In this document: piece by piece, positions 13,116-46,554 of the stretch | How positions within the stretch are numbered: position 1 is the stretch's first letter | How the letters are laid out: each line of letters starts with the position of its first letter | DNA from: Octopus vulgaris | Lineage: Eukaryota | Reading direction: 5' to 3' | DNA: 64,000 bases | NCBI GenBank assembly: GCA_951406725.2 | Contig: OX597831.1 | Coordinates: 18,972,001-19,036,000 of the forward strand | Program-made: the position numbers and the translations under genes | Notes under the pieces: model-generated | Databases searched by the model: none | Seen by the model: only the letters and a program-made list of their open reading frames with translations | Told to the model about the DNA's origin: nothing

Positions 13116-15613
<2,498 letters not shown>

Positions 15614-21566: not shown

Positions 21567-21672
21567 CTATATATATATACATACATAAATAAACATTCAT
21601 ACATACATACCTATATATATATATAAACATTTATAAATGTAACTATAAGTACCTGCAGAATATCTTTGATCG

Positions 21673-22447: not shown

Positions 22448-22488
<41 letters not shown>

Positions 22489-23290
22489 TATATAGGGTCC
22501 TGCATAGGTAGAAGGGCATTTACGTCATGCACATCCAAGGCAATCCAGTTTCGCTGTCATTACGCCTAAAATATGAGGTTTCTCTTGAAAATTTTAAAAG
22601 ATTTTTCCGAAATTAATTTTTTTGTTAAATTACAAATCATTTCCTTTTGATAGGCATTCATATGATACATATTATACATGTGGGTGTTTGATGTTCTGTT
22701 CTGTGTATTTTTGAGTGTGGTGAAGATGTTTCAATATAGTTCTGACCGTGTATTTGTCACAATTTATACTGTGTTTATCAGCTCACATAAGTACGCCACT
22801 TTACAGGAAACACGCCTTGTATCGAATGTCCTCGTTCATCACGTTTCTCACTCCGATACATAATGGTGTTTGGAAATGGCCTCCATTTGTTTACCAGGAT
22901 TATTATCGATAATATTCAGTGTTCGTTGTATAAATTGCGGTATCTTAACGCTTTCTACTGGAGGAATATTCCATTCAGGGTCTACCATATCGGATTGCAA
23001 AGGTAATTCAGTTGCTTGTACAACTGCGTGTTCACAATGGGAACGACAGAATGAGCTCTCCGTTTTGCCCTTGTAACAATCTTGTTCCGTCAATTTGTCA
23101 GCATCACAAAGACCTCGAAACAACTTCACCACACATTTTTAATGGCCCTGTTCAGAAACTTATCACTATCTTGTTACTTGGACGTGGTATAAGAAGTTTT
23201 ATATTATGAACACAACTCATAAACCAAAATATTTTGATTACAGATATTGTTTTATAAAGTTCTCATGTAGAATATATATATATATATATG
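21673..23290. repeat. ~822 bp tandem duplication including a dead second exon 2 (22495-22565)
   Basis: Identical ORFs at 21856 and 22678 (offset 822). The duplicate exon 2 has an AGA>TGA stop and no donor site. Confidence 0.9.
21950..22160 (-). mobile_element. Old Tc1/mariner-type transposase remnant in intron 1 (also ~22770-22980, ~34520-34730, ~46930-47140, partial ~59410-59560)
   Basis: PQFIQRTLNIIDNNPGKQMEAISK...VSE...NEDIRYK resembles the second HTH region of Tc1/mariner transposases, with stops. Confidence 0.55.
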
Positions 23291-23749
23291 GGGGGGGTGT
23301 TATCATGTAGAATATGTATATATACAAATTAGCAAAGAACGTAATAAAATGTTTCTAAAGAAAAAAAGAGTTAACTCCTCTAAAGTTGATTTATCAGATA
23401 ACGGAATATTTGTTACCTTTTGGAAGAATTATTTAATAATAAAAGCTAATGACTGAATTCTGTGGAAAAGTTTCTATTCTATTTGGCAACAGATTTCTTA
23501 TGAACATGTTTAGATATATATATAACACTTGTTTCATGGGCGTGCGTAATGCGAAGTTTGCTTTCCAAACACATGGTTTCATACATCCGGCCTTGTACGT
23601 GGAACTTGACTGTCACTACATAAAACTGGTGATTTCGTAATGCATTAAAGAACTCGTTTATTTAAACATTGTAAATCTGTAACAATTGCAAATGATAAAA
23701 TGTGAAAAGGGGAATTTGTTGGAATTTTATTGATTAATATATCACTTTG

Positions 23750-24175
23750 CAAAAAAAGTACAAGGTCACTGTGTCCATTCTTGGCCCTCTAATTGATGAA
23801 AATGGCACTCTACAAGAGAAAGTCGAAACCATGTATGAGATACAGCAGAAAAAGTACTCCTCTGTTATCAGCAATCTCAATATGGCCTATCTGGTCTGTA
23901 TCAGTCAGGTTAATCTTCAGCACACCCAAGACTTGGCCCACGTGCTATCCACCCACAACATAAAACATACTCGCAGCACAAAACATTATTAGGGCACATT
24001 TATGTTACCTCAATTGGACCCGGTCCCTCTAACATTATATTAAAATACATGAAAGCAGAAACAGTGACCATCCAGTTTAAGACGTCTTCGGACAAATTTC
24101 TCCAAGAATTATAGGATAAACCTCATACACTCGGATATGCCTCTGTAAGTAATAACTCTATTTTCGAATGGGCCA
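23750..24175 (+). mobile_element. Highly deleted CR1-like LINE remnant (also ~36665-37090 and ~49080-49505)
   Basis: GPLIDENGTL motif and a C-terminal-like FKTSSDKFLQEL.DKP...NSI, followed by a (tatg)n tail. Confidence 0.5.
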
Positions 24176-25684
24176 TGTATGTATGTATGTACGTATGTAT
24201 GTATTTATGTATGTATGTATATGGAACAAAAACGTAATAGAGGACAATAAAACATTTGGACAGATAGACTGGAGAAAAAACAATTAGAACAACAGGAAAA
24301 AAGACGGGCCATTTGTGGCCTTATTTCATCAGCCAAGTTTACCAGATGTCCTTACTTCTTCCCGAAATTACATTTGAGACATTTCTATCTGGTTGCCCCC
24401 AAAAGATTCTTAGCTAAGTGAATTAGATATTTTTGGAAGAAAGTTTGCGAATGTGTACGAAAACAAAGACAAAAAAAAGGAGAACATGGTATGCAATTTC
24501 AAATACAACCAACATGGAATTAGCAACAGGTGTCTTTCGATTTAGAACGAATCCAATTGAAGTGGCGTGCATGAAGTGAAAGCCTAAAGGCAGGAACATA
24601 GGTGATGGACACAAGAAGTGTTGGCGGTCGGCATTCAGGCCAAGAAAGAAAGATCACGGCTGGCCAGACACCGGCCACTTGGAAGGAGGAGAGAGGGGTA
24701 GAATCAGCGGGATTGAAGGATTAGCGAACATCAGCATTCGGCCAGACAGATGATACAAAGGCCGACAGGAGAAACAACATTTAGGTCAGAAAATAAAGAG
24801 AGTCATTCGCGTCCTTCTTTCATCAGTCAAGTTTACAAGTCGTCCTCATTTTTTCGGACACAACAAGGTGTCCGATTAGTATTTGCGAGGAGAGATCATC
24901 GCTTCTATCTATTCCTGGTCTTACGTGATACATACTAGCTAGTCATTAACATGCGCTAAGGACGGGTAACCACCCGGAACCTCGAGTCTGTGTGTATCAC
25001 GTAAGGCTAGAGATGGGAGCGTTGACCTTCCCTCGCAAATGCTAATCGGACACAGAATGTGTATCGTTAGCTAACTGGAGGAAATGTCTTCAAGGGGCTA
25101 TAAACGCCAGTATCACAATCCCGTATGTGACTTCACCTTTGGCTGGCAATTCTGTATTGTTACGATCCTGTATTGCTACAGGGTACATCTTGCTCGGATA
25201 TTTAATCTAGATTATTTCTCCACTTTCGAGATCAGCGACGGTTGGTCGCTGCAGAAAGCATCTGGTATTTTGCGAGTTGGGTGAGTTTTCATCACTAGCT
25301 TCCGATGAACACATGCTGATGACGGGTAACCACCTAGAAACTCAGTTTCGGGTGTATCACTAAGGGTAGGGAGGGGAGCGATGACCATCCCTCGCAAATT
25401 ATAATCGGAAACAGAATGTGTTGTTAGTTGGAGGAGACGTTTTCCTGGAGCTATAAACGCTAGTAGTACAGACCCGTAGGGGACGCCGCACTTGGTTGGC
25501 AAATATATGTTACGTTTCAGTAATTGCTACTGTTTGCAGATTTAATATAGCTATGCGTGAGCGGCTGTGTGTGTGTGTGTGCGTTGTGTTTGTCTAAATA
25601 TGTTTGTCAGTATGGATGTATGTATGTACGTATGTATGTATGTATGTATGTATGTATGTATGTATGTATGTATGTATGTATGTA

Positions 25685-25735
<51 letters not shown>

Positions 25736-26419
25736 ATGAATGAATGAATTCATGTGTGCATGCAAGAATAAGGAGAATTAAAAAATGGTTGATGCAAAAT
25801 GTATATAGTACTCCATCCCGTATATTTTGCGCACAAATACGAACAACTATTGCCATTGAGCGCATAAGAGAAAGTAGATTATTGGAATCACTCGTCCTGG
25901 TCTGTTTGTTTACGCATTTACAAAATCCTTGCCAAAAAACGGTTCAATGGATATTCATGAAAATCGGTAAAACAAACTCAGTGGTTGAGTGGTTCGAAGT
26001 GATGATATGTTGGCTTAATTATCTTCAAACATGCATAATGCATACATACATTTGCGACTGCGTGTGAGCCTGTGTGTGTACAGTGATGGATTCGAGTCTT
26101 TCGTTTATTTACCAGTTGATTTTTGAATTTCAGAGGAGTATGCTTATCATGGTGATACTTAAGACACAAAAATTAAATGGAACTTACAAATTTCCCGATA
26201 AGCAAGTTTAATGAAACCTTTCCAAATCTTCATTCAATTCAATTAAAAATCATGGATAAGCAACGCATTGTAAACCACATGATAACTGGCCAAAATATTT
26301 TATCTGAGTGCAGGGTTTGCATCTCACTTCTAGTGCCTATTTTTTTTCTCATTATAAATTAATTTCCATAAAGCTACTTACGGGAAATGAGGAAGACGAA
26401 GACGATAAAATGCTTCATT

Positions 26420-26570
26420 GTCTAATTTCGTGACGAATATCTCGTAGTCTGGCGATTCGCATCGTGGAAACATATGTTATAATTAAATATGATGTGACAT
26501 ATGTTTCAACTGACAGAGACAGCTTGTGAATGGGATCAATGACATGCAATGTCATAATACATTCTCCTAT
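26420..26570 (-). promoter_or_regulatory. Conserved 5' UTR and proximal promoter of the six-Cys family
   Basis: Blocks (plus strand) tgtttcaactgac and atgacatgc recur at similar distances upstream of exon 1 in Z (~11112-11160), A (~15760-15805), B, C, D and E (~62030-62080). Confidence 0.5.
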
Positions 26571-27067
26571 GTTTATTCTTCTACTTTCACGAGCCCCACA
26601 GTTGTGTAAAAGATAGTTTTACATAAATCTGTGATATTTGTGTGCACCCGTACTTCGTGAACGAAGAACAAATTTCGTTTCTAATCTAGGCACAACGCCC
26701 GAAATTTTAGGAGAAGGGATCAGCTGATTAGATCGACCCCGAAGAGATGAAAGGCAAAGGCGACCTCGGCAGAAAGGAAGGAACAATATTACAAATACGT
26801 GTTCAGCCTAAATTTAACAACTATTATTTATCTATTTTTGAAGGAAACATTTCATGAATTTCTTACACGTCTACGTCTTTGGAGAGCATATATATTCATG
26901 TTTCAATTGAGAAAATGTCAGATGACATGAAGAAATGGAAGCCATTTGACAATTAGGTCCAAATTTGGGGACGAGACAAGCTATTCCAAACTTTTCTTTC
27001 TCCACTAATTGCCTTCTCATTGCCTCACCTCCACATACTTATAATTGCTTTCTAAAAATTACACATT

Positions 27068-27117
<50 letters not shown>

Positions 27118-27119
<2 letters not shown>

Positions 27120-28760
27120 CCTTCACTGCCACCTTCACTGCCATAACCTTCACTGACATAACCTTCACTGACATAACCTTCACTGCCACCGACATCGTAG
27201 CAGCAATAAATGAGGTCAAACATTACTCTGCTGTAGGCCCTGATAGATTTCCCGCTAGTCTCCTGAAGGAATGTAGATATCAACTTGCAGTCCCTCTGAC
27301 CAACCTCTGGAGAAACTCGTTAGACGCAGGTTATATACCGAAACAGTTTCTATCCCAGTCGGTCATCCCGGTTTTCAAACAGGGAAACAGATCCCTCGCA
27401 GCCAACTATCGCCCAATCCCACTCACCTCCCACATCATTAAAGTGTTTGAAAGAGTGTTAAGATCAAGGATAGCTGACTTCCTGGAGACCCACAAACTCC
27501 TAAATTCAAATCAGCATGGCTTTCGCTGTGGCAGGGACTGTCTAAAACAGCTCTTACACCACATTGAAGATGTACTCAAAGCCTTGAGAACAGGTTCGAA
27601 CTCTGACGTCATATATCTTGACTTCAGTAAAGAGTTCGACAGGGTTGACCATAACATCCTACTCTCAAAATTGGCAAATGTTGGAATCCGTGGAAAAGTT
27701 CTACACTGGATTCAGTATTTCCTGGCGAATAGAACACAACATTTTGTAGTTGATGGAGTCCACTCAAACCCAGCAAAAGTCACCAGCGGTGTTCCCAAAG
27801 GGAAATCTTTTGGGTCCGCTACTCTTCATAATTTACGTAAACGATCTTTCCAGTGTCGTACATCACTGCAAAGTGAAAATATTCGCTGATGACACTAAGC
27901 TCCAGCAAATCGCCAATGAAGAAGCAGACCGAACTCAACTCCAGTCTGATCTATATGCTGTGAGTCAATGGGCAGACAGAAACAAAATGCAACTGAATGA
28001 GGGAAAATTTGAGCTGATGCATTTTGGAAGAAATTCCTCACTAAAACAACCATACTCTCTTCCTTCAGGGCCACACCTTGAATACTGCTGCCCACTGTGG
28101 TCTCCTCACACAAGACAAAACATCTCCAGAATTGAGTCACCCCAGAAGGCTCTCACTAAACAAATTGAAGGCATGGCTGCTCTCGATTATTGGGATCGCC
28201 TTAAAGCCTTGAAACTTTACTCCTTCAAGCGTCGCCGTGAGCGGTACATCATTTGTACGATGTGGAAAATATACCGCCAACTTTGCCCAAACGACCTAAA
28301 CATTAGCTTCAAGGTTCATCCAAGACTTGGACCACGGGCTATACGTCCCCTGCCAAATTGAAGATCACAACATACATGTACACTGCAACAAAATTTCTTT
28401 TCCTCAACAGGCCCTGCCCTATTTAACATTGTCCCGAGGGAGATCAAAGAGGAAAAGGATCCCATCAACTTTAAACAGAGTCTGGATAGATTCCTTCAAA
28501 GAATACCAGATAAGCCACCCATAATTGGATACAACTCACCCAACAAGAACTCACTACTTGAACAAAACTGGATACAACTCACCCAACAAGAACTCACTAC
28601 TTGAACAAAAATGGATACAACTCACCCAACAAGAACTCATTACTTGAACAAAACTTGACTTAAACAGGGTTCGAATAATCCTATCAGGTGGTGCTATTAA
28701 GTTAGACATGGCCTGGACCAATCTCTGGTCGAAACTATCTAAGTTTTATCTAAGTTTTAT
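27118..28760 (+). mobile_element. 5'-truncated, internally deleted CR1/L2-like LINE
   Basis: NYRPI.LTS, NQHGFR, YLDFSKEFDRVDH, GVP.G..LGPLLF, FADDTK, LEYCCPLWSP. The 3' UTR has three 43-bp repeats and a (tatctaagttt) tail. Confidence 0.9.
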
Positions 28761-28822
28761 ATTTATACACGTATTCATCGCTATATATGTTATTTTTATA
28801 ATTGCTTTCTAAAAATTACACA

Positions 28823-29023
<201 letters not shown>

Positions 29024-29499
29024 TTTTATATATCTATATATATATATATACACGTATTCATCGCTATATATGTTATTTCTATGAGTCTGTATAATCATTA
29101 TTTGATATAGCCGAAGAATAAGCAGTAATATAAGTTTAAGGATTCTGTCAGGTCGCGCTTGAATGCTACTGGTAAAGTGTAATCCAGAACAACCTGTCGG
29201 CATGGTCGGCTCATCGACAACTGAACTGGAAACCCCACCAGGCTTAATGTGAGAGGAGGATGCCGCTGGACAACGTGCGGGAAGAACAATAAAACCTGTT
29301 AAAGGGTGGATGACGTCCTGAAGATCAACGGCCATCCAACAAAATGTCTGTATCCTCTTTTTCATTTCTTATATGTGTATATGCATATATTTACTTTCTC
29401 TCTCTCACTTCTTATATAAATTATGCTTTCAAAGGCACAAGTGAAATTTGACATTATCTTTAATATTTCACCTTGTTTCAAGTGAGATTATCTATCCTC

Positions 29500-29830
29500 A
29501 AATAAATGGGTGCACATGTCACAACTATTCCGCCATTATTTTCCCTCTTTTTGTTCCTTTCTTAATCGATATAGTCTTTCGCCGATAAATAATGTTGCCA
29601 ATGGCATCGGTTGCAATTTGCTTTTGATAATTTTGCGTGCGCACAAATTTCCTCGATTGTTTTATCTCCAATGAGTACGGGCAGATTGTGAATGATGATA
29701 TTGAATGAGTTTTTGTATCTTGGGTTTTGTGAGGAGATGTGACTGCTTTTAAATTTTGTGTGATTTTTCGGTTAACTTCCCTTAATGCTTGTATGACTAT
29801 TTCCTTTCTTCGCTTCACCCATTCGTTTAT
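29500..29830 (-). mobile_element. Very degenerate LINE RT remnant (also ~42250-42580)
   Basis: LKAVTSPH...ISIKKGTKRG weakly resembles the RT motifs KAFDS and I.KG.RQG. Confidence 0.3.
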
Positions 29831-32006
29831 TAATGATGGTGGGTAATGTCTTCTGCGGAGTGTCGAATTAAGTTCACAGAGTCTCCGTTTGCGGGGATTG
29901 GTATCCGAAACTATAGTTTATACTCATTTCGCTAGATTATAAGTTATATTAAGTTTCAATATATTTGGGTTGGCATGAGTTAAATAACAGGTATGGTTTT
30001 GATTCTGTGGCCTTATAAAATATACAATGTACATTGCCTTGAGAGACGATGATATTTTTTTTTATTTTAGATATGAGCACGGAAACCATTTGATATACAT
30101 TTTACTCATATTTAAATTACACGAAGGTTACAGTTACAAAATTCTAAGTATGGAGTACTCAAATTATAACAGATATTCCAACAGCTATAAACTTTTTAAA
30201 CACATAAGATATAGCGATATTAATGAAAGACATAATTGCTTTCGTCCGAGTTATTCTTTGCCACAGATTTTAAATACTACTCTGAAAGTAAAATGCATCA
30301 CAGTTTTATATATGAGGAAGTATAATTAATGTCACATTGAAATATTTTCCAATACCTTACTGTTCTCGTTAAGGAATCGCCCGGTACATATGTGCACTCA
30401 AATGTATGTTTTGTCGTAAGAGATTATATTTCATAATATAGTATCTCGTGTGGGGCTATTTATTATAGCATCTCTGTTAAGTGATACTTCACGATCCACA
30501 ATGCGAAATCGTAATTAATGTAGAATTTCTGGCTTTCTTACCATTATTGATTCTGCTTCTATGGTACCATCTTCATCGGGGTAAATACTTCGAATGCGAC
30601 ATTAAAAACAATTTGAAAATAAAAAAAAACAATGACGCAGTGAAAGTCGTTGAAATATCTCAGAGATATTTTAATCTATATTTAAAGCATACTGTGTAGG
30701 GCATTATTAGAATCCTCAAAATCACATATAAAATTGTAGACATTTGTAGTCCAGTCGATCTAGTTGTGATACAGGAATTTCGTTGTTCGGCTCATCTTTT
30801 TGAATAAATTTTTCAAATTAATACGCATATGTACTTCTAGTACCATAAGAAATATTTATGCATGTGTGAGCAATAATGTTACAAAAGCAGCTCTGGATAC
30901 TGGCTGACCGCTAACCTGTAAATGGAAGAAAAGTTTCGTTATTTGAGATTTAATAAAAACAATGACGTAATGTGAATTAGGTGAGCCTTTTTGCTAGTGA
31001 GATGTTTTACTGTGCAATCCTTATCACTTCCATTAATTTTCGAATAGCCTATGTTATTTTCGATGATATAAACATAAAATATATTAATCAGGGCCACATA
31101 TAATTTATGTTATTTATCAGGATTTGACAAGGTAGATTCCCCTATCAGGAGGAAGTGAATGTTGAGTTTTTTAAACATATACGGTATGTTTGTAGATATT
31201 TTTAATTAACTAACAAAACGGTTTGTTTGGATAGGTGCACTTTCTTGTGCATACCCTATCTTGTACTTTTATTGATTTTAAGCCCTAACGTTGACGTAGG
31301 TTTACTCGAATTGTTGCTAGATTCCATTTACACCCGCAGATGCTAACAATTGTTGGTGGTAGAATAACTACGGTAATTACCAAACCAGCAGCCTTGAGAT
31401 CATTGTTCATTAAGGGGAAACTACAGTATCCTATTCTTAAACACTTGCTTTTCAGTTATATACACGTAATAATCAGCTGTACCATTGAGCAACTTTTCGA
31501 TTTCAATTATATTTCGACGGGCTTGTAACCCCATAAATATTATATCATATGTATTATAAAGATTATACATATGGATGTTATCAAAATATATTCAAAATAT
31601 TCCTGTACGGATAACTCTAGCGCATTCGTATTATGAAACACTCAACGCATTCTCATAATTCTAATTCCTATGCTTACGGTGTAATTCAATGTTATTGTAA
31701 CTACACGGCCTCTTAATATAATTTTCTAAAACATAGAAACCATCTTTTAACTTTCTCAATCAAGGAAGGTTAAATAAATAACTGACGCGGGTATTTTACT
31801 GTGAACACTTCTACTTCAGTTAGGACGTTATAATGCACCCTTTTGCTTTCCAGAGGCTTTGCATTATATTTTATGCCCATGTTACCGTTATCGAAGTCAT
31901 ATTGAAATCGATTACCATACTATGTTAATAATAAAAACATATAGAGCGTCAATTACAACAGATAGGTAGCGAGAGTATTGTAGTGTATGAAAATGGCATT
32001 TATACT

Positions 32007-33765
32007 TCAAATCGATATGGTTGTCATATATTGAAGACTCAGCGGCAGTAGAAATACTTTGCTTGCTCCAACTATGTTCCAGACGAGCTTGCCCGACGGA
32101 GAAGTATTCTGAAAAATATTTCGAATTGTGAAAAATTATTTTCAAAAGCAATAATAGATTCTCAGTCATATTCCCATGCGAAAAATTATCCTCTGCTGAA
32201 TATAGAAACCATTATATTATAATCGATTAGAAATCTTACAAACAAAACAAAATAGATTACTCTTTACTGTTCGACTCTTTTACTTGTTTCAGTCATTTGA
32301 CTGTGGCCATGCTGGAGCACCGCCTTTAGTCGAAGAAATCGACGCCAGGACTTTTCCTTTGTAAGCTTAGTACTTATTCTATCGGGGTTTTTACCGAACA
32401 GCTATGTTACGGGGACGTAGACACACCAGCATCAGTTGTCAAGTGATGTTGGGAATAAACACAAACACGCACACACACATACATATATATACATATATAC
32501 GATCGGCTTCTTTCAGTTTCCGCCTACCAGATCCACTCACAAGTCTTTGGTCTGTCTGAGGCTATAGTAGAAGACACTTGCCCAAGGTGCCACGCAGAGA
32601 GACTGAACCCAGAACCATGTGGTTGGTAAGCATGCTACTTACCAAACAGCCACACTTCCGCCATTACGTTTATTTCACTGCGGTGGCCCCTATAGCCTAA
32701 TATTTACTTTTGAATTGAAAGAAAAGAAAATCGTAGCTAAACAGCTTTCGTTCTTTGTCCGCTCGATTGTTCCTTCAAGGATGATGTAAGGAAAATTAAT
32801 GATTGTTTAGAATTATTAAAGAAAAGAAAACTTTTTGAACCGTTAATTTCTGAATCGCTCATTTTAAATGGAAACATAACGAACACGATGCAGGGTACTT
32901 ACCAGGCATTTCTTAGAATGTATGGTTATGAAAGTGTACTTGCAAAACTTCAACGATTTCTTGAAGCACTTTTCAAATTCCTCGAAATTACTGGAAGGTA
33001 AAACCATAAATAAAAATTATACATTGCGGCATTCTTGCTTTGTTTATATTTTTATAAACCTCGATTCTGGAGCCAAACTCGACTTTCATATACCTTCTTT
33101 TGCATTGTCTCTCCGGCATATATATTCCATTACCTGTTTCAGTCATTTTGGACAACAGCCCAGTTGGACCGACGCGTTTAGTTGAGCAAATCAAGCCCAG
33201 GACTTATTCTTTGTAAGCCTTGAACTTATTCTATCGATCTGTTTTGCCGAACCGCAATGTTACGGGAACGTAAACAAACCAGCATCGGCTGTCAAGCGAT
33301 GTTGAAGGGGATACACATACAATTATATACTCACACATACATATATATATATCGATAGATAGATAGATATATAGATAGATAGATAGATAGATACGACATG
33401 TTTCTTTCAGCTACCAAATCCACTCAAAAGGCTTTAGTCGACCCTAGGATATATTAGAAGACACTTGCCCCAAATCCCGGTCAATCGCGTCAGACAATTG
33501 CTAGCGGAGATATCACGTTTCACTTGGTCTAGTTTAAAAACAAAATATTGTCTATATTTAATCGGACAAAGAGATTCGATATATTTATCAATGGACATAT
33601 TAGGGTTCATTGCCGTGATTCCATATAAATACATGCAGCATTTTCGAATAGATTTATAACAGGAAATATTTGTCAATAAGCGAGTGTATAAATATTAAGT
33701 AAATACTCAATCGAAAAGTACAATCATATATAAATAAATAAATAAATAAATAAATAAATATATAT

Positions 33766-33842
<77 letters not shown>

Positions 33843-35018
33843 TATATACATACCTACATACATACATATATATAAATATTATACATATATAAACACTTAT
33901 AAATTTAACTATAATTACCTGCAATATAACTCTGGATTCAATACAGGGTCTGCATAGGTAGAAGGGCATTTACGTCTTGCAGATTGAAGGCATTCCCATT
34001 TAAATGATATTACGCCTAAAATATGTGAGGTTCCTCTTGAAAATTTTTTAAGATTTTTCCGAAATTAATTTTTTTGTTAAATTACAAATCATTTCCATTT
34101 TGATAGGCATTCATATGATACATATTATACTTGTGGGTGTTTGATGTTCTGTTCTGTGTATTTTTGAATGTGGTGAAGATATTTCAATATAGTTCTTACC
34201 GTGTATTATGTAACTATAATTACCTGCAGAATATCTTTGATCGAGGGTCTGCATAGGTAGAAGGGCATTTACGTCTTGCAGATCCAAGGCAATCCGGTTT
34301 CGCTGTCATTACGCCTAAAATATGAGGTTTCTCTTGAAAATTTAAAAAGATTTTTCCGGAATTAATTTTTTTGTTAAATTACAAATCATTTCCTTTTGAT
34401 AGGCATTCATATGATACATATTATACATGTGGGTGTTTGATGTTCTGTTCTGTGTATTTTTGAGTGTGGTGAAGATGTTTCAATGTAGTTCTGACCGTGT
34501 ATTTATCACAATTTATACTGTGTTTATCAGCTCACATAAGTACGCCACTTTACAGGAAACACGCCTCGTATCGAATGTCCTCGTTCATCACGTTTCTCAC
34601 TCCGATACATAATGGTGTTTGGAAATGGCCTCCATTTGTTTACCAGGATTATTATCGATAATATTCAGTGTTCGTTGTATAAATTGCGGTATCTTAACGC
34701 TTTCTACTGGAGTAATATTCCATTCAGGGTCTACCATATCGGATTGCAAATGTAATTCAGTTGCTTGTACAACTGCGTGTTCACAATGGGAACGACAGAA
34801 TGAGCTCTCCGTTTTGCCCTTGTAACAATCTTGTTCCGTCAATTTGGCTGCTTCACAAAGACCTCGAAACAACTTCACCACACATTTTTAATGGCCCTGT
34901 TCAGATACTTATCACAATCTTGTTACTTGGACGTGGTATAAGAAGTTTTATATTATGAACACAACTCATAAACCAAAATATTTTGATTACAGATATTGTT
35001 TTATAAAGTTCTCATATA

Positions 35019-35086
<68 letters not shown>

Positions 35087-38000
35087 GCTGGTTGTTATCA
35101 TGTAGAATATGTATATATACAAATTAGCAAAGAACGTAATAAAATGTTTCTAAAGAAAGAAAAGAGTTAACTCCTCTAAAGTTGAATTATCAGATAACGG
35201 AATATTTGTTACCTTTTGGAAGAATTATTTAATAATAAAAGCTAATGACTGAATTCTGTGGAAAAGTTTCTATTCTATTTGGCAACGGATTTCTTATGAA
35301 CATGTTTAGATGTTTCCATTAACACGCAAGTAGTGAGCGGTGTTCCGCCGGGCACTGTTTTGGGTTCCACTTCTGTTCATAATGGCCCTCTCAGACATGC
35401 CCTCAGCCACGCAGAGAGCCACGATCACTAGTTATGCAGATGATACAAAAGTTTGACAGGCAATACAGAACCCTGAGGACACTAAACGCCTGCAATGTGA
35501 GCTGGACAAAATATACAAGTGGGCTGAAAAGAATAGCATGCAGTTCAATGCTGAAAAGTTTCAAGCTTTATACTATCAGCATGCAAAACTAAATGCAATA
35601 CCAAATGAATACACTGAACCCGGAGGAACTGCAATCCCAGAGGCACAATCAGTGCGTGACCTGGGTATTTACATGAGTGATGACGCAACCTTTCGTGTAC
35701 ATGTTGCTAAATTGGCAATTGAAATGTAGGCGACTGGCCGGATGGATTCTCAGAACCTTTAGAACAAGAGAACAAGAAACCATGATGGTCCTCTGTTGGA
35801 CACTTGTCCTAAGCCACTTTGACTATTGCTCTCAGCTATGGTCACCATCTAGTGTCAAGTTGATCACAGAACTTGAGGCGATCCAACGTAGCTACACGAA
35901 GAAGATAGCCTCTGTGCAGAATATAAGCTACTGGGAAAGACTCAAGAGATTAAAACTCTATTCCTTGGAGCGTAGGCGAGAAAACTATGCCATAATATAC
36001 ATCTGGAAGATCCTGGAAGGACTTGTCCCAAACTTTGGCATCGAGAGTTACACAAATGCTAGAACTGGGCGCCACTGCATGGTGCCTAGGACTCCAAATT
36101 TGCCATCAAGATGTAGGACAAGATACTGTGATAATCTGGGCTTCCGAGGACCACAGCTCTTCAATATCCTCCCGAATAACCTAAGAGAACTGCATGGGTT
36201 GTATGCAGATGTCTTTAAAATGAAACTGGATCTCTTCTTGTCAGGTATCCCAGATGAACCAACTTCACGGCAGGAGGTGCAGATGAGGGCAGCTGCATCG
36301 AACTCTCTCATGCACCAAATGGCAGTTGCTAAAATGCATTCGTGAAGTAAAACCATGTAGCAACACCAAATGGCTGTGCCCCAGCATGGCCACAGCTCGT
36401 GAGCTGAAACTAGAATCAATCAATCAATCAATCATATATATAACACTTGTTTCATGGGTGTGCGGTAATAAGTTTGCTTTCCAAACACATGGTTTCATAC
36501 ATCCGGCCTTGTACGTGGAACTTGACTGTCACTACATAAAACTGGTGATTTCGTAATGCATTAAAGAACTCGTTTATTTAAACATTGTAAATCTGTAACA
36601 ATTGCAAATGATAAAATGTGAAAAGGGGAATTTGTTGGAATTTTATTGATTAATATATCACTTTGCAAAAAAAGTACAAGGTCACTGTGTCCATTCTTGG
36701 CCCTCTAATTGATAAAAATGGCACTCTACAAGAGAATGTCGAAATCATGTGTGAGATACTACAGAAACAGTACTGCTCTGTTATCAGCAATCTCAATATG
36801 GCCTATCTGGTCTGTATCAGTCAGGTTCATCTTCAGCACACCCAAGACTTGGCCCACGTGCTATCCACCCACAACATAAAACATACTCGCAGCACAAAAC
36901 ATTATTAGGGCACATTTATGTTACCTCAATTGGACCCGGTCCCTCTAACATTATACTAAAACACATGAAAGCAGAAACAGTGACCATCCAGTTTAAGACG
37001 TCTTCGGACAAATTTCTCCAAGAATTATAGGATAAACCTCATACACTCGGATATGCCTCTGTAAGTAATAACTCTATTTTCGAATGGGCCATGTATGTAT
37101 GTATGTACGTATGTATGTATTTATGTATGTATGTATATGGAACAAAAACGTAATAGAGGACAATAAAACATTCGGACAGATAGACTGGAGAAAAAAACAA
37201 TTAGAACAACAGGAAAAAAGACGGGCCATTTGTGGCCTTATTTCATCAGCCAAGTTTACCAGATGTCCTTACTGCTTCCCGAAATTACATTTGAGACATT
37301 TCGATCTGGTTGCCCCCAAAAGATTCTTAGCTAAGTGAATTAGATATTTTTGGAAGAAAGTTAGCGAATGTGTACGAAAACAAAGACAAAAAAAGGAGAA
37401 CATGGTATGCAATTTCAAATACAACCAACATGAAATTAGCAACAGGTGTCTTTCGATTTAGAACGAATCCAATTGAAGTGGCGTGCATGAAGTGAAAGCC
37501 TAAAGGCAGGAACATAGGAGATGGACACAAGAGGTGTTGGCGGTCGGCATTCAGGCCAAGAAAGAAAGATCATGGCTGGCCAGACACCGGCCACTTGGAA
37601 GGAGGAGAGAGGGGTAGGAGGCAGCGGGATTGAAGGATTAGCGAAAATCAGCATTCGGACAGACAGATGATACAAAGGCCGACAGGAGAAACAACATTTA
37701 GGTCAGAAAATAAAGAGAGTCATTCGCGTCCTTCTTTCATCAGTCAAGTTTACAAGTGGTCCTCATTTTTTCGGACACAACAAGGTGTCCGATTAGTATT
37801 TGCGAGGAGAGGTCATCGCTTCTATCTATTCCTGGTCTTACGTGATACATACTAGCTAGTCATTAACATGCGCTAAGGACGGGTAACCACCCGGAACCTC
37901 GAGTCTGTGTGTATCACGTAAGGCTAGAGATGGGAGCGTTGACCTTCCCTCGCAAATGCTAATCGGACACAGAATGTGTATCGTTAGCTAACTGGAGGAA

Positions 38001-38590
38001 ATGTCTTCAAGGGGCTATAAACGCCAGTATCACTATCCCGTATGTGACTTCACCTTTGGCTGGCAATTCTGTATTGTTACGATCCTGTATTGCTACAGGG
38101 TACATCTTGCTCGGATATTTAATCTAGATTATTTCTCCACTTTCGAGATCAGCGACGGTTGGTCGCTGCAGAAAGCATCTGGTATTTTGCGAGTTGGGTG
38201 AGTTTTCATCACTAGCTTCCGATGAACACATGCTGATGACGGGTAACCACCTAGAAACTCAGGTTCGGGTGTATCACTAAGGGTAGGGAGGGGAGCGATG
38301 ACCATCCCTCGCAAATTATAATCGGAAACAGAATGTGTTGTTAGTTGGAGGAGACGTTTTCCTGGAGCTATAAACGCTAGTAGTACAGACCCGTAGGGGA
38401 CGCCGCACTTGGTTGGCAAATATATGTTACGTTTCAGTAATGCTACTGTTTGCAGATTTAATATAGCTATGCGTGAGCGGCTGTGTGTGTGTGTGTGCGT
38501 TGTGTGTTTGTCTAAATATGTTTGTCAGTATGGATGTATGTATGTACGTATGTATGTATGTATGTATGTATGTATGTATGTATGTATGTA

Positions 38591-38643
<53 letters not shown>

Positions 38644-39325
38644 ATGAATGAATGAATTCATGTGTGCATGCAAGAATAAGGAGAATTAAAAAATGGTTGA
38701 TGCAAAATGTATATAGTACTCCATCCCGTATATTTTGCGCACAAATACGAACAACTATTGCCATTGAGCGCATAAGAGAAAGTAGATTATTGGAATCACT
38801 CGTCCTGGTCTGTTTGTTTACGCATTTACAAAATCCTTGCCAAAAAACGGTTCAATGGATATTCATGAAAATCGGTAAAACAAACTCAGTGGTTGAGTGG
38901 TTCGAAGTGATGATATGTTGGCTTAATTATCTTCAAACATGCATAATGCATACATACATTTGCGACTGCGTGTGAGCCTGTGTGTGTACAGTGATGGATT
39001 CGAGTCTTTCGTTTATTTACCAGTTGATTTTTGAATTTCAGAGGAGTATGCTTATCATGGTGATACTTAAGACACAAAAATTAAATGGAACTTACAAATT
39101 TCCCGATAAGCAAGTTTAATGAAACCTTTCCAAATCTTCATTCAATTCAATTAAAAATCATGGATAAGCAACGCATTGTAAACCACATGATAACTGGCCA
39201 AAATATTTTATCTGAGTGCAGGGTTTGCATCTCACTTCTAGTGCCTATTTTTTTCTCATTATAAATTAATTTCCATAAAGCTACTTACGGGAAATGAGGA
39301 AGACGAAGACGATAAAATGCTTCAT
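32007..39325 (-). CDS. Copy C: small secreted, probably GPI-anchored six-Cys protein (105 or 107 aa; two alternative exon 2s)
   Basis: Exons 39289-39325, [34224-34314 or 33919-34015], 32903-32990 and 32007-32108, all GT-AG with phases 1-2-0. MKHFIVFVFLISR-[VMTAKPDCLGSARRKCPSTYADPRSKIFC | VISFKWECLQSARRKCPSTYADPVLNPELYC][63 protein letters not shown]. Confidence 0.85.
35312..36433 (+). mobile_element. 5'-truncated CR1-like LINE in intron 1 of copy C
   Basis: SGVPPGTVLG, YADDTK, MQFNAEKF, VRDLG, DYCSQLWSP, LYSLERRR; (aatc)n tail. The site is empty in copy B (~23515). Confidence 0.9.
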
Positions 39326-39974
39326 TGTCTAATTTCGTGACGAATATCTTCGTAGTCTGGCGATTCGCATCGTGGAAACATATGTTATAATTAAATATGA
39401 TGTGACATATGTTTCAACTGACAGAGACAGCTTGTGAATGTGATCAATGACATGCAATGTCATAATACATTCTCCTATGTTTATTCTTCTACTTTCACGA
39501 GCCCCACAGTTGTGTAAAAGATAGTTTTACATAAATCTGTGATATTTGTGTGCACCCGTACTTCGTGAACGAAGAACAAATTTCGTTTCTAATCTAGGCA
39601 CAACGCCCGAAATTTTAGGAGAAGGGATCAGCTGATTAGATCGACTCCGAATAGATGAAAGGCAAAGGCGACCTCGGCAGAAAGGAAGGAGAATATTACA
39701 AATACGTTTTCAGCCTAAATTTAACAACTATTATTTATCTATTTTTGAAGGAAACATTTCATGAATTTCTTACACGTCTACGTCTTTGGAGAGCATATAT
39801 ATTCATGTTTCAATTGAGAAAATGTCAGATGACATGAAGAAATGGAAGCCATTTGACAATTAGGTCCAAATTTGGGGACGAGACAAGCTATTCCAAACTT
39901 TTCTTTCTCCACTAATTGCCTTCTCATTGCCTCACCTCCACATACTTATAATTGCTTTCTAAAAATTACACATT

Positions 39975-40026
<52 letters not shown>

Positions 40027-40028
<2 letters not shown>

Positions 40029-41625
40029 CCTTCACTGCCACCTTCACTGCCATAACCTTCACTGACATAACCTTCACTGACATAACCTTCACTGCCACCG
40101 ACATCGTAGCAGCAATAAATGAGGTCAAACATTACTCTGCTGTAGGCCCTGATAGATTTCCCGCTAGTCTCCTGAAGGAATGTAGATATCAACTTGCAGT
40201 CCCTCTGACCAACCTCTGGAGAAACTCGTTAGACGCAGGTTATATACCGAAACAGTTTCTATCCCAGTCGGTCATCCCGGTTTTCAAACAGGGAAACAGA
40301 TCCCTCGCAGCAACTATCGCCCAATCCCACTCACCTCCCACATCATTAAAGTGTTTGAAAGAGTGTTAAGATCAAGGATAGCTGACTTCCTGGAGACCCA
40401 CAAACTCCTAAATTCAAATCAGCATGGCTTTCGCTGTGGCAGGGACTGTCTAAAACAGCTCTTACACCACATTGAAGATGTACTCAAAGCCTTGAGAACA
40501 GGTTCGAACTCTGACGTCATATATCTTGACTTCAGTAAAGAGTTCGACAGGGTTGACCATAACATCCTACTCTCAAAATTGGCAAATGTTGGAATCCGTG
40601 GAAAAGTTCTACACTGGATTCAGTATTTCCTGGCGAATAGAACACAACATTTTGTAGTTGATGGAGTCCACTCAAACCCAGCAAAAGTCACCAGCGGTGT
40701 TCCCCAGGGAACTCTTTTGGGTCCGCTACTCTTCATAATTTACGTAAACGATCTTTCCAGTGTCGTACATCACTGCAAAGTGAAAATATTCGCTGATGAC
40801 ACTAAGCTCCAGCAAATCGCCAATGAAGAAGCAGACCGAACTCAACTCCAGTCTGATCTATATGCTGTGAGTCAATGGGCAGACAGAAACAAAATGCAAC
40901 TGAATGAGGGAAAATTTGAGCTGATGCATTTTGGAAGAAATTCCTCACTAAAACAACCATACTCTCTTCCTTCAGGGCCACACCTTGAATACTGCTGCCC
41001 ACTGTGGTCTCCTCACACAAGACAAAACATCTCCAGAATTGAGTCACCCCAGAAGGCTCTCACTAAACAAATTGAAGGCATGGCTGCTCTCGATTATTGG
41101 GATCGCCTTAAAGCCTTGAAACTTTACTCCTTCAAGCGTCGCCGTGAGCGGTACATCATTTGTACGATGTGGAAAATATACCGCCAACTTTGTCCAAACG
41201 ACCTAAACATTAGCTTCAAGATTCATCCAAGATTTGGACCACGGGCCTATACGTCCCCTGCCAAATTGAAGATCACAACATACATGTACACTGCAACATA
41301 ATTTCTTTTCCTCAACAGGCCCTGCCCTATTTAACATTGTCCCGAGGGAGATCAAAGAGGAAAAGGATCCCATCAACTTTAAACAGAGTCTGGATAGATT
41401 CCTTCAAAGAATACCAGATAAGCCACCCATAATTGGATACAACTCACCCAACAAGAACTCACTACTTGAACAAAACTGGATACAACTCACCCAACAAGAA
41501 CTCACTACTTGAACAAAACTTGACTTAAACAGGGTTCGAATAATCCTATCAGGTGGTGCTATTAAGTTAGACATGGCCTGGACCAATCTTTGGTTGAAAC
41601 TATCTAAGTTTTATCTAAGTTTTAT
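40027..41625 (+). mobile_element. CR1/L2-like LINE, paralogue of 27118-28760
   Basis: ORF 40351-41301 with GVPQGTLLGPLLF and FADD. Two 43-bp repeats in the 3' UTR. Confidence 0.9.
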
Positions 41626-41687
41626 ATTTATACACGTATTCATCGCTATATATGTTATTTTTATAATTGCTTTCTAAAAATTACACA

Positions 41688-41800
<113 letters not shown>

Positions 41801-44732
41801 GTATTCATCGCTATATATGTTAATTTCTATGAGTCTGTATGATCATTATTTGATATAGCCGAAGAATAAGCAGTAATATAAGTTTAAGGATTCTGTCAGG
41901 TCGCGCTTGAATGCTACTGGTAAAGTGTAATCCAGAACAACCTGTCGGCATGGTCGGCTCATCGACAACTGAACTGGAAACCCCACCAGGCTTAATGTGA
42001 GAGGAGGATGCCGCTGGACAACGTGCGGGAAGAACAATAAAACCTGTTAAAGGGTGGATGAAGTCCTGAAGATCAACGGCCATCCAACAAAATGTCTGTA
42101 TCCTCTTTTTCGTTTCTTATATGTGTATATGCATATATTTACTCTCTCTCTCTCTCACTCCTTATATAAATTATGCTTTCAAAGGCACAAGTGAAATTTG
42201 ACATTATCTTAAATATTTCACCTTGTTTCAAGTGAGATTTTGTATCCTCAAATAAATGGGTGCACATGTCACAACTATCCCGACATTATTTTCCCTCTTT
42301 TTGTTCCTTTCTTAATCGATATAGTCTTTCGCCGATAAATAATGTTGCCAATGGCATCGGTTGCAATTTGCTTTTGATAATTTTGCGTGCGCACAAATTT
42401 CCTCGATTGTTTTATCTCCAATGAGTACGGGCAGATTGTGAATGATGATATTGAATGACTTTTTGTATCTTGGGTTTTGTGAGGAGATGTGACTGCTTTT
42501 ATATTTTGTGTGATTTTTCGGTTAACTTCCCTTAATGCTTGTATGACTATTTCCTTTCTTCGCTTCACCCCTTCGTTTATTAATGATGGTGGGTAATGTC
42601 TTCTGCGGAGTGTCGAATTAAGTTCACAGAGTCTCCGTTTGCGGGGATTGGTATCCGAAACTATAGTTTATACTCATTTCGCTAGATTATAAGGTATATT
42701 AAGTTTCAATATATTTGGGTTGGCATGAGTTAAATAACAGGTATGGTTTTGATTCTGTGGCCCTATAAAATATACAATGTACATTGCCTTGAGAGACGAT
42801 GATATTTTTTTTATTTTAGATATGAGCACGGAAACCATTTGATATACATTTTACTCATATTTAAATTACACGAAGGTTACAGTTACAAAACTCTAAGTAT
42901 GGAGTACTCAAATTATAACAAATATTCCAACAGCTATAAACTTTTTAAACACATAAGATATAGCAATATTAATGAAAGACATAATTGCTTTCGTCCGAGT
43001 TATTCTTTGCCACAGATTTTCAATACTACTCTGAAAGTAAAATGCATCACAGTTTTATATATGAGGAAGTATAATTAATGTCACATTGAAATATTTTCCA
43101 ATACCTTACTGTTCTCGTTAAGGAATCGCCCGGTACATATGTGCACTCAAATGTATGTTTTGTCGTAAGAGATTATATTTCATAATATAGTATCTCGTGT
43201 GGGGCTATTTATTATAGCATCTCTGTTAAGTGATACTTCACGATCCACAATGCGAAATCGTAATAATGTAGAATTTCCTGGCTTTCTTACCATTATTGAT
43301 TCTGCTTCTATGGTACCATCTTCATCCGGGGTAAATACTTCGAATGCGACATTAAAAACAATTTGAAAATAAAAAAAAACAATGACGCAGTGAAAGTCGT
43401 TGAAATATCTCAGAGATATTTTAATCTATATTTAAAGCATACTGTGTAGGGCATTATTAGAATCCTCAATGTCACATATGAAATTGTAGACATTTGTAGT
43501 CCAGTCGATCTAGTTGTGATACAGGAATTTCGTTGTTCGGCTCATCTTTTTGAATAAATTTTTCAAATTAATACGCATATGTACTTCTAGTACCATAAGA
43601 AATATTTATGCATGTGTGAGCAATAATGTTACAAAAGCAGCTCTGGATACTGGCTGACCGCTAACCTGTAAATGGAAGAAAAGTTTCGTTATTTGAGATT
43701 TAATAAAAACAATGACGTAATGTGAATTAGGTGAGCCTTTTTGCTAGTGAGATGTTTTACTGTTCAATTCTTATCACTTCCATTAATTTCCGAATAGTCT
43801 ATGTTATTTTCGATGATATAAACACAAAATATATTAATCAGGGCCACATATAATTTTATGTTATTTATCAGGATTTGATAAGGTAGATTCCCCTATCAGG
43901 AGGAAGTGAATGTTGAGTTTTTTAAACATATACGGTATGTTTGGATAGGTGCACTTTCTTGTGCATACCCAACAGACTATCTTTATCTTGTACTTTTATT
44001 GATTTTAAGCCCTAACGTTGACGTAGATTTACTCGAATTTTTGCTAGATTCCATTTACACCCGCAGATGCTAACAATTGTTGAGGTAGAATAACTACGGT
44101 AATTACCAAACCAGCAGCCTTGAGATCATTGTTCATTAAGGGGAAACTACAGTATCCTATTCTTAAACACTTTCTTTTCAGTTATATACACGTAATAATT
44201 AGCTGTACCATTGAACAATTGTTCGATTTCAATTATATTTCGACGGGCTTGTAACCCCATAAATATAATATCGTATGTATTATAAAGATTATACATATGT
44301 ATGTTATCAAAATATATTCAAAATATTCCTGTACGGATAACTCTAGCGCATTCGTATTATGAAACACTCAACGCATTCTCATAATTCTAATTCCTATGCT
44401 TACGGTGTAATTCAATGTTATTGTAACTACACGGCCTCTTAATATAATTTTCTAAAACATAGAAACCATCTTTTAACTTTCTCAATCAAGGAAGGTTAAA
44501 TAAATAACTGACGCGGGTATTTTACTGTGAACACTTCTACTTCAGTTAGGACGTTATAATGCACCCTTTTGCTTTCCAGAGGCTTTGCATTATATTTTAT
44601 GCCCATGTTACCGTTATCGAAGTCATATTGAAATCGATTACCATACTATGTTAATAATAAAAACATATAGAGCGTCAATTACAACAGATAGGTAGCGAGA
44701 GTATTGTAGTGTATGAAAATGGCATTTATACT

Positions 44733-46472
44733 TCAAATCGATATGGTTGTCATATATTGAAGACTCAGCGGCAGTAGAAATACTTTGCTTGCTCCAACTA
44801 TGTTCCAGACGAGCTTGCCCGACGGAGAAGTATTCTGAAAAATATTTCGAATTGTGAAAAATTATTTTCAAAAGCAATAATAGATTCTCAGTCATATTCC
44901 CATGCGAAAAATTATCCTCTGCTGAATATAGAAACCATTATATTATAATCGATTAGAAATCTTACAGACAAAACAAAATAGATTACACTTTACTGATCGA
45001 CTCTTTTACTTGTTTCAGTCATTTGACTGTGGTCATGCTGGAGCACCGCCTTTAGCCGACCCCAGGGATTATCCATTGTAAGCCTAGTATTTATTCTCTC
45101 GGGGCCTTTTACCGAACAGCTATGTTACGGGGACGTAGACACACCAGCATCAGTTGTCAAGTGATGTTGGGGAACAAACACAAACACGCACACGCACATA
45201 CATATATATACATATATACGATCGGCTTCTTTCAGTTTCCGCCTACTAGATCCACTCACAAGTCTTTGGTCTGTCTGAGGCTATAGTAGAAGACACTTGC
45301 CCAAGGTGCCACGCAGAGAGACTGAACCCAGAACCATGTGGTTGGTAAGCATGCTACTTACCAAACAGCCACACTTCCGCCATTACGTTTATTTCACTGC
45401 GGTGGCCCCTATAGCCTAATATTTACTATTGAATTGAAAGAAAAGAAAATCGTAGCTAAACAGCTTTCGTTCTTTGTCCGCTCGATTGTTCCTTCAAGGG
45501 TGATGTAAGGAAAATTAATGATTGTTTAGAATTATTAAAGAAAAGAAAACTTTTTGAACCGTTAATTTCTGAATCGCTCATTTTAAATGGAAACATAACG
45601 AACACGATGCAGGGTACTTACCGGGCATTTCTTAGAACGTATGGTTTTGAAAGTGTACTTGCAAAACTTCAACGATTTCTTGAAGCACTTTTCAAATTCA
45701 TCGAAATTACTGGAAGGTAAAACCATAAATAAAAATTATACATTGCGGCATTCTTGCTTTGTTTATATTTTTATAAACCTCGATTCTGGAGCCAAACTCG
45801 ACTTTCATATACCTTCTTTTGCATTGTCTCTCCGGCATATATATTCCATTACCTGTTTCAGTCATTTTGGACAACAGCCCAGTTGGACCGACGCGTTTAG
45901 TTGAGCAAATCAAGCCCAGGACTTATTCTTTGTAAGCCTTGAACTTATTCTATCGATCTGTTTTGCCGAACCGCAATGTTACGGGAACGTAAACACACCA
46001 GCATCGGTTGTCAAGCGTTGTTGAAGGGGATACACATACAATTATATACTCACACATACATATATATATCGATAGATAGATAGATAGATAGATAGATATA
46101 CGACGTGTTTCTTTCAGCTACCAAATCCACTCGAAAGGCTTTAGTCGACCCTAGGATATATTAGAAGACACTTGCCCCAAATCCCGGTCAATCGCGTCAG
46201 ACAATTGCTAGCGGAGATATCACGTTTCACTTGGTCTAGTTTAAAAACAAAATATTGTCTATATTTAATCGGACAAAGAGATTCGATATATTTATCAATG
46301 GACATATTAGGGTTCATTGCCGTGATTCCATATAAATACATGCAGCATTTTCGAATAGATTTATAAAAGGAAATATTTGTCAATAAGCGAGTGTATAAAT
46401 ATTAAGTAAATACTCAATCGAAAAGTACAATCATATATAAATAAATAAATAAATAAATATATATATATATAC

Positions 46473-46554
<82 letters not shown>

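What the first reader, a model, noticed from the sequence alone, without database searches (positions are those of the whole stretch)
33919..34314. Two tandem intact exon-2 variants in copy C: candidate mutually exclusive splicing
Exon 2a (34224-34314, 91 nt, VMTAKPDCLG...PRSKIFC, B-type) and exon 2b (33919-34015, 97 nt, VISFKWECLQ...PVLNPELYC, D-type) both keep a TTTTAG acceptor and a GTAATT donor, 208 nt apart. Both are phase 1>2, so including both shifts the frame and only one can be used productively. Copy B independently has a duplicated but dead exon 2 (22495-22565). Inference: recombination between paralogues is creating cassette-type diversity in the N-terminal half of the domain.
Basis: partly seen in the sequence, partly recalled or inferred. 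Interest (0 to 1): 0.7.

Follow-up and report, generated by a model that had tools for sequence, protein, structure and literature searches.

The report
Octopus hybrid gene with twin exons
A 12.6-kb tandem duplication in an octopus gene array fused two neighbouring genes and left the hybrid with both parents' second exon side by side, plus one RNA pairing site predicted to compete for two partners, so the gene likely makes working protein from only one exon at a time, though no RNA could be checked.

Summary
Exons 2a (91 nt) and 2b (97 nt) are intact, 208 nt apart and phase 1>2. Including both puts a stop 81 nt before the next junction.

The pair sits exactly at the breakpoint of a 12.6-kb tandem duplication (1.4% diverged). 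Copy C is therefore a 5'-B/3'-D hybrid lying between its two parents (anti-Lepore layout). Contigs of 4 of 4 DNA runs laid carry the junction (one clear bridge, three at the tool's length limit), so misassembly is unlikely.

New here: a predicted 19-bp stem whose upstream arm (34883-34864) is single, while its partner is duplicated in front of each exon. That is docking-site/selector geometry. It beats 200 of 200 shuffles, but 4 of 148 other windows reach similar strength, and no compensatory change is seen.

The exons diverged mainly at amino-acid sites. The protein is a small six-cysteine, probably GPI-anchored protein, known only from one Octopus bimaculoides model.

Splicing is untested because no RNA holder was listed. 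The likeliest outcome is leaky either-or output filtered by nonsense-mediated decay. Regulated exclusive splicing and an unproductive gene both remain open.

The parts
39289..39325 (-). Copy C exon 1 coding part (signal peptide, phase-1 end)
   Evidence: matches residues 1-13 of O. bimaculoides XP_052830201.1
34864..34883 (-). Predicted docking arm: single copy in C, intron 1, 4.4 kb after the exon-1 donor
   Evidence: a contig with 0 other letters covers at least its 11-nt core in 4 of 4 runs
34464..34483 (-). Predicted selector a, 150 nt before exon 2a; duplex -30.1 kcal/mol with the docking arm
   Evidence: pairing probability 0.88 in the 1-kb region
34224..34314 (-). Exon 2a, B-type, 91 nt, phase 1>2
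   Evidence: no other letters listed in X2-X4 contigs across the exon
34207..34208 (.). Breakpoint of the 12.6-kb tandem duplication: B-type sequence ends 16 nt after the 2a donor, D-type intron begins 192 nt before 2b
   Evidence: junction contig in 4 of 4 runs
34168..34187 (-). Predicted selector b, 153 nt before exon 2b; two C-to-T changes turn G-C into G-U; duplex -25.5 kcal/mol
   Evidence: pairing probability 0.009 at equilibrium
33919..34015 (-). Exon 2b, D-type, 97 nt, phase 1>2
32903..32990 (-). Copy C exon 3 (88 nt, three Cys)
32067..32108 (-). Probable 42-nt linker exon, GC donor in C and D (GT in B and E)
30856..30915 (-). Copy C last coding exon, hydrophobic tail read as a GPI-anchor signal (inferred)
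34208..46911 (.). Duplicated segment, copy 1 (D 3' part, spacer, C 5' part)
   Evidence: 153 mismatches in 10,680 aligned bases against 21637-34207
21637..34207 (.). Duplicated segment, copy 2 (C 3' part, spacer, B 5' part)
46621..46717 (-). Copy D single exon 2, identical to 2b; D's docking arm (47288-47269) carries three stem-breaking changes
   Evidence: -14.9 kcal/mol
21653..21743 (-). Copy B full exon 2 (2a-type) with TTTGAG acceptor
22495..22565 (-). Copy B truncated extra exon 2, from a separate duplication; intact docking allele upstream at 23134-23115

Best explanation
Copy C is a hybrid gene at the breakpoint of a 12.6-kb tandem duplication and carries the exon 2 of both parent genes; it likely yields working mRNA with only one exon 2, because transcripts with both exons are frameshifted and predicted to be destroyed by nonsense-mediated decay, while one intronic RNA arm predicted to pair with either of two partners would bias the choice. 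Step 1 (shown in sequence): the 5' part of C, up to 16 nt past the 2a donor, continues the B-side copy. The 3' part, from 192 nt before 2b, matches D. Step 2 (inferred): one unequal crossover between misaligned B and D, offset by about 305 nt, turned the array E-D-B into E-D-C-B. Step 3 (shown in sequence, function predicted): the B side brought the docking arm and selector a, and the D side brought selector b. Step 4 (inferred): pairing with selector b loops out 2a and gives 2b-only mRNA. Pairing with selector a loops out neither exon, so 2a is included; 2b is then either included too (stop, decay) or sometimes skipped. The output is leaky and unequal rather than a tightly regulated switch.
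For: The duplication ends at 34208/34207, with 1.4% mismatch over 10,680 aligned bases. C 3' vs D 3' differ by 1.4%, C 3' vs B 3' by 11.5%. C and B share the upstream spacer (1.5% over 2,752 nt), while D shares only 198 nt of it. Junction contigs lie in 4 of 4 runs from 4 studies and 2 organism labels, at 1.2-2.5 times the depth of the paralogue-E contig. Frame arithmetic and stop position. Stem -30.1 kcal/mol, reached by 0 of 200 shuffles (mean -18.6). Both changes in selector b keep a pair (G-U). The geometry matches the model in PMC6071210. 2a vs 2b: 16 of 91 exon sites differ against 10 of 189 intron sites (Fisher p = 0.0017); pN 0.18 vs pS 0.04 over the first 23 codons. C has no stop or splice-site lesion in exons 1-3 or the last exon, whereas B has several.
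Against: No junction read or RNA contig was seen. Stems this strong are not rare here: 4 of 148 windows and 1 of 27 reach -30. There is no compensatory (two-sided) change, and the outgroup copy E lacks the stem (best -20.2). At equilibrium the docking arm pairs selector b with probability 0.009 in this haplotype, so loop-out of 2a would be rare. No second, downstream stem to skip 2b was found. The intact docking allele in both two-exon genes follows from common descent and is not independent evidence of selection. C 5' is not clearly closer to B (1.4%) than B is to D (1.3%); C vs D is 2.0%. With about 1.4% divergence since the event, intact exons are weak evidence of use. X1 may be the source of the assembly. 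X2-X4 have 30 letters on the short side of the breakpoint, one under the tool's bridging rule.
Confidence: 0.42

Rival explanations
1. C is effectively unproductive: both exons have full-strength sites, are nearly always spliced in together, and the mRNA is degraded (or the gene is silent). C would be a young pseudogene that has not yet decayed.
For: 2b, the last 60 nt of its acceptor region and its donor are identical to D's single exon 2. The 208-nt intron is long enough to splice. The favoured stem loops out neither exon. The event is young (1.4%), and neighbours A and B are decaying.
Against: The junction is in 4 of 4 runs at no less than single-copy depth, with no listed change in 2a or the 5' half of 2b. 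C exon 3 differs from D by 4 amino-acid and 0 silent changes. Both points are weak.
Confidence: 0.28
2. True docking-site/selector mutually exclusive splicing, as for Dscam exon 6: pairing activates the exon just downstream of the paired selector and the other exon is repressed. The window's haplotype would then make mainly 2a, and haplotypes with a stronger selector b would make both.
For: One docking arm and two selectors at equal distance (150 and 153 nt) from their exons; stem above shuffles; same layout as Fig. 3a as described in PMC6071210. Selector b is weakened in the haplotype where the other 2a carrier, B, is broken. X2-X4 are inferred to have the stronger allele at 34181.
Against: In Dscam the switch also needs a repressor and weak splice sites (PMC6071210); here the sites equal those of a single-exon gene. 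No covariation; about 3% background rate for such stems.
Confidence: 0.24
3. Different origin: an old in-gene 305-nt duplication made 2a and 2b, whole-gene duplication followed, and D lost 2a while B lost 2b.
For: In the window the 2a-2b intron has 5 private changes in its 5' part and equals D only in the last 60 nt. Junction depth of 2.3-2.5 times E in X2 and X4 could mean more than one two-exon gene.
Against: The 12.6-kb duplication ends exactly at the 2a/2b junction, and B's 3' half is 11.5% from C's. In X2-X4 the junction contig ends where it would merge with D-type intron and has the two differences expected of D-type alleles (positions inferred). One event explains everything; this rival needs at least three.
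Confidence: 0.08
4. Misassembly of two similar paralogues or haplotypes.
For: Near-identical 12.6-kb repeats and many TA microsatellites are hard to assemble; no listed contig spans the whole stretch.
Against: The junction sequence itself occurs in contigs of 4 of 4 runs, three with alleles unlike the window's. The copies differ by 1.4%.
Confidence: 0.03

Closest known systems
Mutually exclusive homologous exons from tandem exon duplication (PMC8373072, passages read; PMC6071210, parts 1 and 3 of 5 read)
   Same: Two adjacent homologous exons of the same phase and similar length; joint inclusion shifts the frame.
   Different: Either-or use is not shown here. The human cases are mostly old (90.9% have fish equivalents, PMC8373072); this pair is about 1.4% young. 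The two exons came already diverged from two genes rather than by copying one exon.
Docking-site/selector pairing (Dscam exon 6; duplication model of Ivanov and Pervouchine 2018, PMC6071210; srp two-way pairing, PMC4691838, passages read)
   Same: One upstream intronic arm complementary to a sequence repeated before each exon; the repeat arose with the exon duplication.
   Different: No compensatory changes, no deep conservation, no mutational test, no downstream stem as in srp. The docking arm is 4.4 kb from the upstream donor.
Hybrid genes from unequal crossover in tandem arrays, anti-Lepore haemoglobin layout (recalled, not from a call)
   Same: The hybrid sits between its two intact parents, 5' part from the downstream gene and 3' part from the upstream gene.
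   Different: The exchange is out of register by about 305 nt, so the hybrid keeps both parents' exon 2.
Octopus bimaculoides uncharacterized protein LOC128249756 (XP_052830201.1, XP_052830200.1)
   Same: Same exon blocks, six Cys, signal peptide and hydrophobic tail; closest to copy E (exon 3 67% identical). Only hit among 1.84 billion representatives.
   Different: The models hold one exon-2 block. Isoforms X1 and X2 differ at the N-terminus, not in exon 2. Function is not described.

Membership tests
Mutually exclusive homologous exons | Adjacent homologous exons, same phase, intact splice sites | tested here: met
Mutually exclusive homologous exons | Each exon seen alone in mRNA between the same flanking exons, never both | not testable with these tools
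   No RNA holder listed; only DNA runs could be laid
Mutually exclusive homologous exons | Both exons kept across species | tested here: inconclusive
   Junction in runs of two organism labels, but these hold exact 31-mers and so are very close; O. bimaculoides models show one exon-2 block
Steric exclusion | Intron between the exons too short to splice | tested here: not met
   208 nt; the usual limit of about 50 nt from donor to branch point is recalled
U2/U12 incompatibility | Mixed major and minor splice sites | tested here: not met
   Both exons have TTTTAG and GTAATT, ordinary GT-AG sites
NMD-enforced exclusion | Exon lengths not multiples of three; joint inclusion gives a stop well before a later junction | tested here: met
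   91 and 97 nt; stop 81 nt before the 2b/exon-3 junction and 169 nt before the next. Decay itself untested
Docking-site/selector system | One flanking site complementary to a site before each exon, pairings competing | tested here: met
   -30.1 and -25.5 kcal/mol with the same arm; predicted only
Docking-site/selector system | Conservation with compensatory base changes | tested here: inconclusive
   Only two one-sided G-C to G-U changes; copies too young; absent from E
Docking-site/selector system | Exon choice changes on breaking the stem and returns on restoring it | not testable with these tools
   Needs a minigene
Hybrid gene by unequal crossover | Tandem duplication whose breakpoint lies inside the gene, with each side matching a different neighbour | tested here: met

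The most novel reading that the evidence does not exclude
A mutually exclusive exon cassette caught at birth: one out-of-register crossover between two fast-diverging paralogues delivered, in a single step, two ready-made alternative exons and a working docking-site/selector switch, and selector strength now varies between haplotypes, tuning isoform choice in an octopus cell-surface protein family under diversifying selection. It would be a natural test of the duplication model for competing RNA structures.
Probability: 0.2. Interest if true: 0.75.

Novelty: new variant of a known kind. Interest (0 to 1): 0.45.

Why it matters
How exclusive exon pairs become exclusive right after duplication is an open question, and the described cases are mostly ancient. 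Here the parents (B, D), the breakpoint, the candidate stem and natural alleles of both stem arms lie within 30 kb. The two splicing models predict opposite main products (2b-only or double inclusion against 2a-only), so one RNA data set or minigene decides. It also suggests that paralogue crossover can create pre-diverged alternative exons. If C proves unproductive, it is an ordinary by-product of array turnover.

Tried and rejected
No whole genome was held. The run search listed no RNA holder among 24 rows; this is no evidence on expression.

No laid contig covers the 3' end of 2b (33885-33944) in any run, or B's downstream flank. Filtering or contig pruning is likely, so I draw nothing from it. 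I first read the 0.52 word share of X2-X4 as 'B and D without C', because B+D alone predict 0.52; one search overturned that. I first read the private changes in the 2a-2b intron as a lost paralogue; X2-X4 appear to lack at least two of them, so I dropped this. Depth ratios were not additive across contigs and are used only as 'not rare'.

Word-index protein searches with exon read-throughs found nothing; with P0001, only itself. Pfam gave 0 families for 6 exon peptides and 2 full proteins. ESM Atlas gave no usable hit. Rfam gave 0 matches in 33880-35020. Two AlphaFold models had mean pLDDT 52, so no fold search was run. Alignment A4 was misaligned and not used.

No significant downstream stem was found. 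A transposon terminal-repeat origin of the stem was considered; only the selector side has a homologue in the window (E intron 1), so it stays unresolved.

Literature searches found no paper on this gene or on a cephalopod docking/selector exon pair, judged from listings only. The library lacks most subscription papers, and supplements were not read. Earlier scan notes held nothing on this locus.

Full report
Setting. The window holds a tandem array of related genes on the - strand, in transcription order E, D, C, B and degenerate A copies. A profile of five exon-3 peptides found 1 protein among 1.84 billion representatives (E 1.4e-08). It is Octopus bimaculoides uncharacterized LOC128249756, whose blocks map onto exon 1, exon 2, exon 3, a 42-nt linker exon and the last exon. 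The window is therefore most likely from an octopus; the microsatellites and a SINE that I recall as octopus-type agree. The product is a signal peptide, a domain of about 55 residues with six Cys and a hydrophobic tail that I read as a GPI signal (inferred). Pfam, the Atlas and two low-confidence folds gave no family.

Observation. Coordinates, lengths, splice sites, phases, peptides and the 208-nt gap are as reported. Each exon alone keeps the frame. Both together give a stop 81 nt before the 2b/exon-3 junction, and skipping both also stops early. B's extra exon is real and dead and comes from a different unit of about 820 nt. B also has a TTTGAG acceptor at its full exon 2 and a TGA in exon 3. 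In this haplotype C is thus the only intact carrier of the 2a type.

What it is. Window 21637-34207 and 34208-46911 are a head-to-tail duplication: 13 collinear blocks with 153 mismatches in 10,680 aligned bases after masking microsatellites. Its breakpoint lies 16 nt after the 2a donor and 192 nt before 2b. Downstream of it C matches D (1.4%) and not B (11.5%). Upstream, C shares its whole spacer with B, while D shares only 198 nt of it. The 5' gene parts are nearly star-like (C-B 1.4%, B-D 1.3%, C-D 2.0%), so they do not by themselves assign parentage. The simplest history is one unequal crossover between B and D, out of register by about 305 nt at a spot of imperfect similarity, which left a 5'-B/3'-D hybrid between its parents (inferred).

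Is it real? Of 24 listed runs, 8 hold part of the stretch and none is on record as RNA. I laid 4 of them. X1 has a contig over 34159-34273 with no other letter, with 49 and 66 letters on the two sides of the breakpoint; it may be the assembly's source. X2, X3 and X4 (three other studies, one with another organism label) each have a fully aligned 106-nt contig over 34178-34283 with 2 other letters. The two letters are not listed; exactly two sites (34197, 34181) separate the window from D-type intron in that stretch, so I infer those. Junction contigs have 1.2, 2.3, 1.5 and 2.5 times the depth of the paralogue-E contig (rough, not a copy number). No change is listed in 2a or the 5' half of 2b in X2-X4. 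The 3' end of 2b is covered in no run.

Divergence of the exons. 2a and 2b differ at 16 of 91 aligned sites against 10 of 189 in the duplicated intron (p = 0.0017). Over the first 23 codons pN is 0.18 and pS 0.04; over all 29 codons 0.23 and 0.12. Exon 3 of C vs B gives pN 0.27 and pS 0.05, with flanks at 0.7-3%. This suggests diversifying selection on the mature domain, on small counts. Under the crossover model it acted while 2a and 2b were in separate genes, so it does not show that C uses both.

How exclusion could work. Steric and U2/U12 exclusion are not met. The frameshift condition for an NMD filter is met. A scan for helices between the exon cluster and the rest of the pre-mRNA ranked one partner first and third: 34883-34864 pairs with 34483-34464 before 2a or with its duplicate 34187-34168 before 2b. 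The stem is 19 bp with one mismatch, -30.1 and -25.5 kcal/mol. None of 200 shuffles reached it, but 4 of 148 and 1 of 27 real windows did, so the background is about 3%. Selector b carries two C-to-T changes, both opposite G, which has a fair chance of happening without selection. D and B's second unit carry three stem-breaking changes in the docking arm (-14.9), while C and B's first unit are intact. This fits descent from ancestral B and is not independent proof of function; 3 of 7 differences falling in the arm has p = 0.055. Both docking alleles occur in 4 of 4 runs. E has no such stem. The layout is that of Ivanov and Pervouchine's model, which itself notes that a single upstream dock explains only one of the two splicing choices (PMC6071210, parts 1 and 3 of 5 read). 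In srp a second, downstream stem supplies the other choice (PMC4691838, passages); I found none here. Folding the 1-kb region gives 0.88 for dock with selector a and 0.009 with selector b.

Verdict. Shown: a real, young hybrid gene with two intact, diverged exon-2 variants at a duplication breakpoint. Predicted: a competing stem. Inferred and untested: what the spliceosome does. I put leaky, NMD-filtered either-or output at 0.42, an unproductive gene at 0.28, a Dscam-type switch at 0.24 and misassembly at 0.03. The alternative origin (0.08) concerns history rather than splicing. It works like a tandem exclusive-exon pair in layout, but membership is unproven without RNA. My searches found no paper on this gene or on such a stem in cephalopods (listings; supplements not read). 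Interest 0.45, or 0.75 if the switch is shown.

Noticed in passing
window 32108-32067 and 44834-44793; 56051-56010; 18806-18765 (- strand): A 42-nt in-frame linker exon matching the O. bimaculoides model has GT donors in E and B but a GC donor in C and D, so it may be a GC-AG intron or skipped in frame.
   Followed up: partly
window 31725-31678, 44451-44404, 55671-55624 (- strand): A 48-nt open AG...GT segment is identical in C, D and the otherwise distant E, degenerate in B and absent from the O. bimaculoides protein: a possible extra exon or a recently converted tract.
   Followed up: no
window 19684-19597 (- strand): B exon 3 is 77% identical to C's with flanks 97-99% identical; nearly all changes are amino-acid changing, and it has a TGA at the last Cys.
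   Followed up: partly
window 21637-23290: B's separate duplication of about 820 nt is bounded by TA microsatellites, which suggests exchange between the TA tracts flanking exon 2; exon 2 has been duplicated twice by different routes in this array.
   Followed up: partly
window 14460-14475 (- strand): In the degenerate A copy exon 2 is overwritten by a TA/CA microsatellite; the remaining 3' end resembles 2a's end more than 2b's or E's.
   Followed up: no
window 34223-34210 (- strand): The 2a donor and next bases could form a 5-bp hairpin, weaker at the 2b donor; the two donors can also pair with each other (-9.7 kcal/mol).
   Followed up: no
window 13380-12880 (- strand): A decayed stretch that reads like a LINE reverse-transcriptase fragment (by eye, recalled likeness) lies after A exon 3.
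   Followed up: no
runs X2 and X4, window 34178-34283: Junction contig depth is 2.3-2.5 times the E contig, so other individuals may carry more than one two-exon gene or longer exon arrays.
   Followed up: no
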